From Podarcis vaucheri (lineage: Eukaryota): a DNA stretch of 64,000 bases. The position numbers and the translations under genes were made by a program. The stretch lies in NCBI GenBank assembly GCA_965113315.1, contig OZ220370.1; one strand, given 5' to 3'. The stretch's first letter is position 1; each line of letters opens with the position of its first letter. The notes under the pieces are model-generated. The model searched no databases and was not told the origin of the DNA. It saw only the letters and a program-made list of their open reading frames with translations. This document shows positions 4,411-12,662 of the stretch, one piece after another.

Positions 4411-4601
4411 CAGAAATATAGATTTTGCCATTATGTACAGCTCCTGCATGTGCCGCCAAGGGCTGTGGTAGGGAAGATACATAACGCCATTCATTTGTCT
4501 CTAAATTATAGCATTCCACACTTGACAAGTAGCCAGTCTCATTTCTCCCACCTATCACATACAGGTTTTTGTCAAGCCGACAGGCATAAAAACTGGCTCT
4601 C
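4411..4601 (-). CDS. KLHL14: KLHL14 coding exon (191 nt, Kelch) ending in a GC donor
   Basis: Encodes RASFYACRLDKNLYVIGGRNETGYLSSVECYNLETNEWRYVSSLPQPLAAHAGAVHNGKIYIS(G); tttctctAG| acceptor; donor is G|GCAAGT. Confidence 0.95.
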
Positions 4602-8389: not shown

Positions 8390-9040
8390 TTGAGATTTCA
8401 ATGACATGCTTTATTATCTGGACTTATGGTAAGGGATCACTTGCGCAGTTCCACTAGGACATCACCTCACCATCAACCTGAGTCTAGAACACACTGTGCA
8501 AGAGGTTCACTTTCTGGACATGAATGTGCAACTATTAATGGACATATAAGCACATCCTTATATAGGAAACCTACTGACTGTTACTCATACTTACATGCTT
8601 CCAGCTTCCACCCAGAGCACACTAAAGAGTTCATTGTTTACAGTTGAGCTCTATGATACAACAACATCCATTCAGATTCATAGGACTGGACAGAACCTCA
8701 CAACAAAAATAATTCACATCAGACACCCAAAGTGAAAAATCAGATCAACAAAGCCAAACTGTTCTTAGGTACCAATCTTCTACACAACAGATCTAGAACA
8801 GAAAATGACAAACTACCACTTGATGTCACAACAGCCAAGCCAAAGCCACTCAAGCCTATCATCAATGATCTACAGTTCATCAAGGACAGACACTTCCCAC
8901 ACATAAGCCTTCAGTGGCAGACCTCCAGTTGCTCTCAGACAACCGCCTAAATAGGACAGATACTCAGCAGCAACAGTGGGCCATACAAGAGGTATGGACA
9001 CAGAGGCCAGCTCCCTATTAAAGACCAAGAAGCTGACTCT
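8390..9040 (+). mobile_element. Penelope-like reverse transcriptase fragment (decayed)
   Basis: Frameshifted motifs FIIWT..G, INLSLEH...VHFLD, NGHISTSLYRKPTDCYSYLHASSFHPEHTKEFIVYS are typical of PLE RT. Confidence 0.85.
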
Positions 9041-10157
9041 GTCTACTCCATTTTATCAAACCAACAGTTTTGTGATAGGTCACTGTTAAATATGTAATTA
9101 TCTGCATTACATTTCCTTCTGACCTCACTGTTTACACCCACCCACCCACAAAACCCCCCATGTAACTTGCAATCCAGCAGCCTGTTCTTATGTAGAGGTA
9201 AGCTAGCTCTATGGCAGTCCCTGGAACTGGTGGTGATGAAACAGTAGGAGTCATAGCAGAAGACTTACAATGGATTGAATAAAACAGAGGCCAGGACCCA
9301 TTTTATAACTTAATCTGTGAGACAGTGATAAAGGCGAAGATGGCTTTTGTGTCACCACTGCATCTGCTCATAATCACCCAACATAGCTTTTCTAGGTGGT
9401 CAAAGAGCTATTGCAACGGAGCCTTTCAGGATGAGTTTGCCAAATACTTTGCAGGAAAAATTGTTCCATTCATTCCAATTTACAAGCCACCGTTTGGCCA
9501 GGGCCATATTGTGCCTCTTTTATGCTACTCTATGTTTCTATGTGCTTCTTGATGTTTTGAAATTCTGGATGTAATATTGTGCTGTTTTTAACAACTGAAA
9601 ACTAAATTTATTACATTGTTAGCTTCCTTGAAGGGCTCTTGGAATACAGAAGAGAAACAAATCTTCCAGGGCATGGGAAATCCTATCTGTGTAGGCGCAT
9701 CCCCATGTGTGGGACTGCAGAGAACTCATAAAAGAAAATATAGCCTTTCAAACTGTTCCGTGCTGCTTTAGACAGCCATTTTCTCCGATGTTTCTTTGCT
9801 TCCGCCATGCTTCTTTTCCTGCTTTCATTTTCTGAACCATTTCTTTGGAGGTGGTATAGCTGTGGCCATTGGACTTTCTGAAAGTTCACGGTGGGGAGGC
9901 AGGTCACCACCCTCCATCAACTTCTCAGCAAAGTGGCCCCCCAGGTGAGTGGAGCTGACCACCTGTTACTGCTGGGCTGGCTTTGTATGGAAACTTGCTC
10001 ATGTGCTAAAGTGGGGTACATCTAAGTCACAGATTTTCAGCCTCATCAGCATTGTACCAACTATGTCAATAGCTAGGACTTCAGTGCAAAGGCCAATTTA
10101 CGTCACAAAGAGGATGCAATTGCACTTGAAGTGCAGTACTATAACCATTTTTTTAAA

Positions 10158-10295
10158 AATAAAAAAATTCCTTCCAGTAGCACCTTAAAGACCAACTAAG
10201 TTAGTTCTTGGTATGAGCTTTCGTGTGCATGCACACTTCTTCAGATACCAAGTATTTTGACTATGGCAGACCTAACACGGCTACCTATCTGTAAC
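10158..10295. mobile_element. Penelope-like element terminal (pLTR) remnant with internal inversion
   Basis: ccttccagtagcaccttaaagaccaactaag...cttcttcagatac followed by ttttgactatggcagacc..acacggctacc..ctgtaac resembles reptile Penelope ends; carries the hammerhead motif. Confidence 0.75.
10207..10252 (-). ncRNA. Minimal type I hammerhead ribozyme motif (Penelope-like element pLTR)
   Basis: Minus strand: cttggtat-CTGAAGA-a-GTGTG catg CACAC-GAAA-gc-TC-ataccaag. Conserved core, 8-bp stem I, stem II and palindromic AGCT mini-stem III. Confidence 0.85.
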
Positions 10296-12583
10296 ATTTT
10301 TTTTAAAAAAATGGAAACAATCCAGCAAAAAATAAAGTATTTAATTTAGATTAATTTCAATTGGAGGAAGTTAAATGCATACTTAACCCTCCCGATGAAA
10401 TCAGTAGGACATAAATGGAGCATGTCCCAGTTTTCTTACTAACTAATACTGAATCTTCATTGCAGAGGCCCTTTTTGACTAGCATTCAGCACCCAGTGCA
10501 GTGCTGTGCAGAGGTACAGACTCTGCAATGCCCAACAGATGGTTGGCTGAATACTTATTGGGGAAGAAGTGAATCCATGTTCTCTCCCTCCAGAGAATGA
10601 TTCATGTGGATGGGCTCTCCAGACAGGGTCACAGAATTTTATTCCCTATCATGTTTTAGTGTTACTGAATTTTTCTTGAAGGAGTTTTTATTTGCTATGC
10701 TTTCTGCTGCAGTGGGTCTTGGTTGTATTTGTTTTAGTTTCATACTTGATGTCTGCCTGTCTTATTATTACTGGTTTATTCATTTTTTATTTGCGATTAT
10801 ACTGTATTATCTTTACAATTACTGTTTTTATAGAAGCAATCTTGAGGGAGTTTTGACTTTTTAAGGCAGCATATAAATATTTTAAATAAAATAATAAATG
10901 TATTGTTAAACAAATTCTTAATAGTTTTGTTGTTGTCACTCATCCTGAGAACTTTGTTATAGAGCACTATAAACAAACAAACTATTGCTTCACAGGAGGA
11001 GAAAAAAAACATCCTTACTGCACACATTTTGTCATAAAAAGGAGAGCATAAAAGCTCTTTATTAAAGAATATGAATGACTAAAAACTGTCTTGAAAGGCA
11101 CTTGACTTAATAAATTGGAAGTCTCCAAAGAAGTCACAAGGGACTAGTCAGTAAACAATTCACATATTTTAAAATGTCTAATCACATTTTCAGCAATACT
11201 GTCTTATCCTCAGAGGCTCGTACAACACTGAAATAATTGATCACTGTGAATTATGTAGGCTCAGCTAGGAGGGTGAAGGTTAATTATCTCACTTTAAGAG
11301 CCCGGCAAAGAAGGGTTTTGATAATTAGAACACCATTTTGAAACAGAATTTGGACTTCTAAATACTTCAAATGATATTTTAAATATCAGACAGGCTTATA
11401 AGAAAAATCTAAAGCTGTCCATTTTTTTTTTTAAAAAACCCTCATGGTACAAGCTCTACAGACATTAAATCTGCCTTAAGTTTGAGGCAGTGAGGCTGTG
11501 ACAAGTAGATTTGTTCAACTGGATAACGAGCTGAACATCTTCAATTTTTATGGATGTCCTAGCTAAAGTGTATCCCCAAAAGCTTTATATACTGTGCATC
11601 TGTGTTGTATTAGGAGTTGGATAATGGCTTGCATAATAACTACATATTTATAACCGTTCCCCAACCTAAAATCTAGGGAGTCCCTAATCAAGTCTCTCTC
11701 TATGGAAGAGGTTGAACAACATGGTGTAGAAGTGGATTATACATACCCACTTTAATCTGGTTTAAGGCCCAGTTTAGAAGTGGAACTTTTACTCTTCCAG
11801 GCCCAAATTTTAGAATACACTTTCCATTGCTGTCTGCTGGTGCTCTTCTTCATTCTCCTTTGCAGTTTTGCAAGACATTTTATACATTTAGGTGCTTGAT
11901 TTCTGGTCCTTCACTGTTCCTTATTTTACATTTGGCTTCTTTTTAGTGTGATTACTGAACACCTCCATGCTTACCTGAGGTCTGAACTTTTCACAGTCAC
12001 CCTGACATTGTATTAAACAAGACGATAGATTAAATACATTACTTTAATAAGTAAAATGGCTGGGGAGCAAAGAATGCTTATGGTGGGTGGAGAAGGTTCA
12101 GGACAAAGGGAGAAAGGTACCACCTTTGGTACCTCTCACCTTCCCCAGTGCGCTTCTGCCAGCTTCTTCTACCACCTGATTATATGGAGTGGGCAGGTAC
12201 AGGACCTAGCGGGTGCTGCCATTACCAGCCTAAGTGACCAAAAAGGCAAGGAATGGTTGCTCTGTCAATGCATGCTGAAATTCAATGAAAGCAAAGCAAA
12301 AATATAATAGAAAATAGTAATTGTGAAATAGTTCAGAGATTTGAAAGAAACACTGTTTCTACAATTCTATGAAAAGGATGTAGCAGTTCAGCTTTTACTT
12401 GAAAGTACCTTCTTGTCAGCAGAAAAATAATCTAGCACTATTATATTTTATTTGCTAGTGCAAATCAATTCCAACACTTTCACCATTCGCTTTTTTCACC
12501 GCTAAGTTAAACCCCAACCATCTTCCTCTCTTAGGTAAAACAGCCACCCTTTCCCCAACCCCAAATATATAGCACACATTTAC

Positions 12584-12662
12584 CTCTCTTGCATGGGTGG
12601 AAGTTGTATCCAGCTGTTAAATCTAGGATCATACCGGCTAACAAAGTTTGTACTGTGCTTTC
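12584..12662 (-). CDS. KLHL14: KLHL14 coding exon (79 nt, Kelch)
   Basis: Encodes (G)KHSTNFVSRYDPRFNSWIQLPPMQE(R); ctttacAG| acceptor, |GTAAAT donor. Confidence 0.96.

What the first reader, a model, noticed from the sequence alone, without database searches (positions are those of the whole stretch)
10207..10252. Well-formed hammerhead ribozyme sense to the KLHL14 pre-mRNA
Seen on the minus strand: cuugguau CUGAAGA a GUGUG caug CACAC GAAA gc UC^ auaccaag. All core nucleotides are present, stem I is 8 bp, and predicted cleavage is between 10215 and 10214. It lies in the intron between the 12.6-kb and 4.6-kb exons and would be transcribed with KLHL14. Established: minimal PLE hammerheads have palindromic stem III and cleave best as dimers. 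Inference: the long stem I may come from the inversion junction of the insertion, producing a more stable ribozyme inside a host intron that could cut nascent RNA.
Basis: partly seen in the sequence, partly recalled or inferred. Interest (0 to 1): 0.7.

Follow-up and report, generated by a model that had tools for sequence, protein, structure and literature searches.

The report
Penelope retroelement stub with hammerhead motif
The ribozyme motif is real, but it is one of over 9,000 identical copies of a jumping-gene end, in a recent insertion that two related species lack, and alone it is predicted not to cut RNA, so it is most likely an ordinary neutral insertion rather than a regulator of the host gene.

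Summary
Letters, coordinates, cut site and host-sense orientation are confirmed. 'Well-formed' is overstated: stem III is absent, because A15.1 and U16.1 are two bases apart and can pair only in a dimer. The motif sits in a 140-bp insertion with a 9-bp target-site duplication. It is a twin-armed stub of a Neptune-type Penelope-like element (RT + GIY-YIG; intact copy L151). The 34-nt core has 9,164 exact copies in this genome. Native stem I is 4 bp. They are likely copied when the cDNA end primes on the stem I complement. A longer stem I does not supply stem III, and no partner copy lies nearby. Published minimal Penelope hammerheads show no cleavage as monomers or without element protein. Verdict: a likely neutral young stub of a known kind. 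The scan found the same kind before in this genome (e1-9567838, e1-9831424) and in other DNA (e1-9867701).

The parts
10146..10154 (+). target-site duplication, left copy (9 bp, T-rich)
   Evidence: identical to 10295-10303; run X3 joins 10145 to 10295 with 9 letters of ambiguity
10155..10294 (.). whole insertion, 140 bp (149 bp with one duplication copy)
   Evidence: empty site in contigs of runs X3 and X4; both junctions present in run X1
10156..10248 (-). arm A: element leader from the start of stem I to the first common 3' end, 89 nt after C3; equals L151:1785-1877
   Evidence: 93 nt at 96.8% to both pLTRs of full-length copy L151; 100% to many short copies
10207..10252 (-). minimal type I hammerhead motif: stem I 8 bp, core, extra A after A9, stem II 5 bp, 4-nt palindrome in place of stem III; predicted cut 10215/10214
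10249..10252 (+). 4-nt junction filler that extends stem I from 4 to 8 bp; a copy of the 4 nt that follow the native stem I 3' strand; not in the element's own upstream sequence
   Evidence: native upstream differs; same filler at 144 sites genome-wide
10253..10295 (+). arm B: inverted 'tail', the 42 nt between the two common 3' ends, just before the element's start codon; equals L151:1872-1913; one private extra base at 10273
   Evidence: extra base seen against family reads
10295..10303 (+). target-site duplication, right copy; first base shared with arm B
12584..12662 (-). host Kelch exon upstream of the intron
4411..4601 (-). host Kelch exon downstream of the intron

Best explanation
This is a recent 140-bp insertion of the leader of a Neptune-type Penelope-like retrotransposon into the host intron, and its hammerhead motif is predicted to be inactive as a lone copy and likely neutral. 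How it was likely made (inferred). The element's GIY-YIG endonuclease nicked a T-rich target on both strands 9 nt apart. The reverse transcriptase started at the two fixed internal sites of an uncut element RNA, one from each nick. One cDNA ran 89 nt past C3 to the start of stem I, the likely 5' end of the RNA; the other copied only the 42-nt tail. The first cDNA end, which carries the complement of the 4-nt stem I 5' strand, paired briefly with the complementary stretch on itself or on the second cDNA. It gained 4 templated bases before the arms were joined, which is why stem I is 8 bp. In the host pre-mRNA it would fold into stems I and II but could not form stem III without a second copy, so the intron would be spliced uncut.
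For: Shown: 9,164 exact 34-nt cores, control 0. Both arms map to full-length L151, which has an 897-aa ORF with RT (E 3e-12) and GIY-YIG (E 3e-5) and a CX4CxxC linker motif, the Neptune/Nematis mark in PMC8557442. 9-bp duplication and empty site in runs X3 and X4. In 100 unselected copies, 3' ends cluster at 85-97 nt (45) and 120-135 nt (43) after C3; this copy's arms end at 89 and 125. That matches the two internal start sites, the tail and the two-strand extension shown for the anole element (PMC11167929). Filler enrichment: 144 of 1,839 sites that have the first filler base have all four (29-32 expected); 144 of 339 that have three have the fourth (p 2e-12 against 0.25). In 4 of 30 such sites the copied stretch runs on for 30-55 nt. 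No monomer stem III. Published: a single Schistosoma minimal motif showed no cleavage and dimers little (PMC4209133); the anole motif did not cut without element protein, and no RNA-seq reads began or ended at its cut site (PMC11167929). In three raw RNA runs of related organism E, family reads cover the cut site in both directions at peak depth, with no pile-up of ends there.
Against: No cleavage assay was run. The published negatives are for other elements (Schistosoma, and a Poseidon-clade anole element), not this family. The RNA runs are from another species, show other copies, and ordinary RNA-seq shows ends poorly. The 4-bp fold-back is not stable in the DNA fold model, so it needs the enzyme or the second cDNA. 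Cis fold-back cannot be told from joining to the second cDNA. The filler test counts sites, and a few sites lie in one insertion. Whether the insertion is fixed in its species is unknown: X1 may be the window's own sample. The third relative (X6) gave no contig across the site.
Confidence: 0.87

Rival explanations
1. Assisted cleavage: the lone motif cuts part of the host pre-mRNA when the element's protein, or abundant element RNA as dimer partner, is present, for example in germline.
For: The anole hammerhead cuts in vitro when element protein is added (PMC11167929). An intact ORF exists in this genome. The core is intact and sense to the host. Stems I and II are predicted at 0.86-1.0 pair probability in the intron context. 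Retrozyme-related copies are under-represented in Xenopus introns (bioRxiv 10.64898/2026.07.22.740005).
Against: The stub's protein-binding region is rearranged: the tail is inverted in the host transcript and no ORF sequence follows; the anole protein needed 172 nt of ORF RNA. An active dimer needs stem I strand exchange, and an 8-bp cis stem would likely resist this. ORF reads were near zero in the RNA runs laid (another species).
Confidence: 0.08
2. Co-opted regulatory ribozyme of the host gene, like the conserved intronic hammerheads of amniotes.
For: Sense orientation in an intron; conserved intronic hammerheads are thought to derive from retroelements (PMC6155905 passage).
Against: Absent in two relatives whose flanks differ at only 13 and 19 of about 950-990 aligned letters. 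100% identical to many dispersed copies over 98-99 nt. No stem III. The same 8-bp stem arises at 144 sites.
Confidence: 0.02
3. The insertion is as described, but the 4 extra stem I pairs are a chance match of untemplated or otherwise templated junction bases.
For: Junction fillers are varied: 6 of the first 30 sites with the first filler base have all four, and others copy stem II or the tail. For one site a chance 4-nt match cannot be excluded.
Against: 4-5-fold genome-wide excess and 30-55-nt run-ons from the same register. The chance share of the 144 is about one fifth.
Confidence: 0.03

Closest known systems
Minimal hammerheads (min-HHR) of metazoan Penelope-like elements (Cervera and De la Pena 2014, PMC4209133; read parts 1-2 of 4: abstract, results, discussion, start of methods; supplements not seen)
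   Same: Type I; short native helix I (4 bp); unpaired base between positions 9 and 10.1; G10.1-C11.1; palindromic 15.2-16.2; thousands of dispersed single copies from truncated elements; reported in reptiles.
   Different: Helix II is 5 bp plus a self-complementary loop (a perfect 14-nt palindrome), not 7-8 bp; this copy has a junction-made 8-bp helix I.
PAc / Poseidon_Ac of Anolis carolinensis (Frangieh et al. 2024, PMC11167929; read parts 1-2 of 4 and passages; supplements not seen)
   Same: Lizard EN+ element; hammerhead in the leader; two 3' ends about 40 nt apart defining a tail; AT-rich target; both strands extended; uncut RNA as template.
   Different: PAc is Poseidon-clade, with its start codon at stem II and the RT start sites inside the ORF. 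Here the start codon is 132 nt after C3, both 3' ends lie before it, and the protein has the Neptune-type zinc-finger linker.
Neptune/Nematis EN+ Penelope-like elements and their tandem/inverted insertions (Craig et al. 2021, PMC8557442; passages only)
   Same: RT then GIY-YIG, CX2-5CxxC linker, pLTRs, inverted truncated arm, 30-40-bp tail.
   Different: No tree was built, so Neptune versus Nematis rests on the linker motif and on recalled host range; the window copy has no coding sequence.
Conserved intronic hammerheads of amniotes, such as the RECK intron (PMC6155905, passage only)
   Same: Type I motif in an intron.
   Different: Those are conserved across classes of amniotes. This one is species-restricted, multicopy and lacks helix III.

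Membership tests
Hammerhead ribozyme, monomer-competent type I | core C3-U4-G5-A6-N7-G8-A9, G12-A13-A14, A15.1, U16.1, H17 | tested here: met
Hammerhead ribozyme, monomer-competent type I | stems I and II | tested here: met
   pair probabilities 0.86-1.0 in intron context; z -4.31
Hammerhead ribozyme, monomer-competent type I | intramolecular stem III | tested here: not met
   2 nt between A15.1 and U16.1; pair probability 0.0; no Rfam hit
Hammerhead ribozyme, monomer-competent type I | self-cleavage | not testable with these tools
   bench assay needed
PLE minimal hammerhead | extra base after A9, G10.1-C11.1, palindromic 15-16 segment, short native helix I | tested here: met
   definition
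PLE minimal hammerhead | located in the pLTRs of an RT + GIY-YIG element | tested here: met
   two copies flank the 897-aa ORF in L151
EN+ PLE insertion | inverted truncated arm, 30-40-bp tail, AT-rich target | tested here: met
Neptune clade | CX2-5CxxC linker before GIY-YIG (shared with Nematis) | tested here: met
   CX4CxxC in the L151 ORF; definition
Neptune clade | RT phylogenetic placement | not tested
   no reference set held; no tree built
Domesticated intronic hammerheads of amniotes | orthologous presence across species | tested here: not met
   empty site in X3 and X4; X6 unresolved
Non-LTR retrozyme | head-to-tail tandem units each with a hammerhead | tested here: not met
   single unit in the window; a 5-unit array exists elsewhere (L098)

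The most novel reading that the evidence does not exclude
Penelope integration itself builds stabilised hammerheads. The RNA starts at stem I, a TATA box and initiator lie just upstream, and the stem I complement primes the joining step, leaving about 150 copies per genome with 8-bp or longer stems. Those in sense introns, this one included, are cut whenever the element's protein is expressed, so retroelement activity would sever host pre-mRNAs. The building step alone (stem-I-primed joining at the transcript's 5' end) I put near 0.5; the cutting of host RNA is the unlikely part.
Probability: 0.05. Interest if true: 0.6.

Novelty: new member of a known kind. Interest (0 to 1): 0.15.

Why it matters
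As a feature of the host gene it likely does not matter. The family-level by-products have modest value for the open question of how Penelope-like elements finish an insertion. Of 60 copies without the long native upstream, 34 stop exactly 4 or 6 nt before C3, next to a TATA box 30 nt before an initiator-like motif. Junction fillers are often copied from the stem I complement. Both observations give simple predictions for the existing in vitro system. I did not find the stem-I-primed filler described in the papers returned by searches or in the passages; those cover open-access text only and I did not see supplements.

Tried and rejected
Rfam scan of the window: no match at gathering score; expected for a motif without helix III, so no evidence either way. 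Sequencing-run search: no RNA holder listed for window:9500-11000; no evidence on expression. Run X6 (organism E) gave no listed contig across the site, and 8 joints were not shown. Search for a dimer partner: none in the window apart from N-masked stretches, and none with an intact core in the 60 kb to the left. Idea that the longer stem I favours the active dimer: rejected. The active dimer scores -27.9 against 2 x -14.4 for monomers; the native form scores -12.7 against 2 x -6.8; an inactive extended duplex scores -47.4 kcal/mol (nearest-neighbour model, no tertiary terms). Idea that the 8-bp stem is the element's native form: rejected; the top BLAST hits were enriched for it only because the query held it. 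Idea that the 5' boundary is a splice acceptor, as in Drosophila virilis Penelope: not settled. A donor-like site lies 154 nt before C3 and an acceptor-like site 5 nt before it, but only 2 of 60 stubs break at -5 and neither carries the donor-side sequence; no spliced joint was listed. Orientation bias of intronic copies could not be tested because no gene annotation is held.

Full report
Observation. All core positions are present, an extra A follows A9, stem II has 5 bp, stem I has 8 bp, and the scissile bond is 10215/10214. The 61-nt region folds at z = -4.31. It is the only one of 14 loose core-pattern hits in the window with stem I over 3 bp. What is missing is stem III. A15.1 and U16.1 are separated by two bases and have pair probability 0.0 with 50, 100 or 200 nt of flank. 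The 4-nt palindrome there can pair only with a second copy. Rfam has no hit in the window.

What it belongs to. The 34-nt core occurs exactly 4,592 + 4,572 = 9,164 times in the 1.6-Gb genome, with control 0, or about once per 176 kb, so a copy in a long gene is expected. A frame found beside one copy led to a full-length element. L151 has two pLTRs with the hammerhead, 3,019 nt apart, around an 897-aa ORF with RT and GIY-YIG domains. It carries a CX4CxxC motif before the endonuclease, the linker described for Neptune and Nematis clades (PMC8557442 passages). Window 10156-10248 matches the leader in reverse at 96.8%, and 10253-10295 matches the following 42-nt tail in the opposite orientation.

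Age. Contigs of four DNA-type runs were laid on 9700-10800. X3 (organism B) joins 10145 to 10295, skipping 149 nt with 9 letters of ambiguity. One X4 contig (organism C) runs on without a gap from 10154 to 10306. X1 (organism A, possibly the window's own sample) has both junctions. X6 (organism E) is unresolved. The insertion is thus 140 bp plus a 9-bp T-rich duplication, and it is younger than the split from relatives whose flanks differ at 13 (X3) and 19 (X4) of about 950-990 aligned letters. Arm A is 100% identical to many dispersed copies.

Origin of the long stem I. I took the first 100 exact-core copies listed on contig C1, out of 9,164. Stem I is 4 bp in 78 (49 with the native upstream letters), under 4 bp in 13, 5-6 bp in 7, and 8 bp or more in 2. 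So 4 bp is native and the extra 4 bp here are junction filler. The filler repeats the 4 nt that follow the native stem I 3' strand. Genome-wide, 1,839 sites have the first filler base, 339 the first three and 144 all four. Chance gives 29-32 for all four, and the last step is 42% against 25% (p 2e-12). In the first 30 of the 144, the copied stretch is 4-6 nt in 26 and 30-55 nt in 4. This points to templated extension primed by the 4-nt stem I complement, on the same cDNA or on the second one (inference). Against a simple version: that pairing is not stable in the DNA model by itself, and other fillers copy stem II or the tail.

How the stub was likely made. In the same 100 copies the 3' ends cluster 85-97 nt (45) and 120-135 nt (43) after C3, and reads of related organism E show loose ends at the matching places of L151 (1872 and 1913-1915). 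This copy uses both ends, one per arm. The anole element PAc nicks and extends both strands, starts at two internal RNA sites that define the tail, prefers AT-rich targets and uses uncut RNA (PMC11167929, parts 1-2 read). A two-nick, two-primer event explains the anatomy (inference). On the 5' side, 34 of the 60 copies without long native upstream stop 4 or 6 nt before C3. A TATA box lies 30 nt before an initiator-like motif whose A is 7 nt before C3. The stubs therefore likely end at the RNA's 5' end. A splice-acceptor reading, as in Drosophila virilis Penelope, whose promoter is TATA-less and whose intron ends at helix I, is not excluded.

Does it cut? Not tested at the bench. Cervera and De la Pena saw no cleavage from a single Schistosoma minimal motif and low cleavage from dimers and trimers (PMC4209133, parts 1-2 read). 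The PAc motif did not cut without protein, and no RNA-seq reads ended at its site. Here no intact partner lies in the window (N stretches excepted) or in the next 60 kb. In the folding model the active double hammerhead (-27.9 kcal/mol) is not better than two monomers (2 x -14.4). The native 4-bp form shows the same gap (-12.7 against 2 x -6.8). An inactive duplex through the 14-nt stem II palindrome is far lower (-47.4). The active dimer needs stem I to swap strands, so a longer cis stem would if anything slow it (inference). In three raw RNA runs of organism E laid on L151:1640-2400, 89-96% of reads run on into unrelated sequence, as expected for stubs inside host transcripts. Depth peaks across the cut site (1818/1819) in both read directions, and the only listed pile-up of ends is at 1770 in one run. 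This is weak evidence: another species, other copies, 6-12% of each run read. For assisted cleavage: an intact ORF exists, and retrozyme-related copies are under-represented in Xenopus introns (bioRxiv 10.64898/2026.07.22.740005, abstract and results part 1 of 2).

Comparison and verdict. It works like, and passes the tested features of, a minimal hammerhead of an EN+ Penelope-like element. It fails the stem III test for a monomer-competent hammerhead and the conservation test for domesticated intronic hammerheads (PMC6155905 passage). Earlier notes of this scan reached the same kind of reading for other copies in this genome and elsewhere; they are not independent support, and my reading was fixed before I saw them. 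Supplements of the cited papers were not seen and may hold lizard alignments or junction analyses. Verdict: real motif, ordinary origin, likely neutral; new member of a known kind; interest 0.15.

Noticed in passing
L098 (G000:C1:5631954-5632397, minus): Five head-to-tail units of about 101-104 nt, each with an exact hammerhead core: a mini-array where a double hammerhead could form in cis, and a better candidate for real cleavage than the window copy.
   Followed up: no
L151:1590-4900 (G000:C25 near 3.432 Mb): Full-length Neptune-type element with an open 897-aa frame and two pLTRs, preceded by a partial tandem copy; position 17 of its hammerhead is U, where most short copies have C.
   Followed up: partly
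window 10223-10236: Stem II plus loop is a perfect 14-nt palindrome, so two copies are predicted to form an extended inactive duplex; it could also nucleate RNA pairing or arm joining.
   Followed up: partly
L151:1750-1790: TATA box 30 nt before an initiator-like motif, 7 nt before C3; the same spot also reads as a splice acceptor, with a donor-like site 154 nt upstream.
   Followed up: partly
window 8462-8874: Old fragment, 65% identical to the element's coding region, in the same intron.
   Followed up: no
L183 (G000:C27 about 52,270,100-52,274,300): Older rearranged family copy, 82-90% identical to L151, about 65 kb left of the insertion; no intact core found.
   Followed up: partly
window 4410-4409 (minus): The 4.6-kb Kelch exon appears to end at a GC splice donor.
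   Followed up: no
window 10114, 10677, 10725, 10743: All four DNA-type runs, including organism A, agree on other letters than the window at these sites: assembly errors or another haplotype.
   Followed up: no
L152: A near-complete family copy (880-aa frame) lies beside a LINE with endonuclease and RT frames on the other strand.
   Followed up: no
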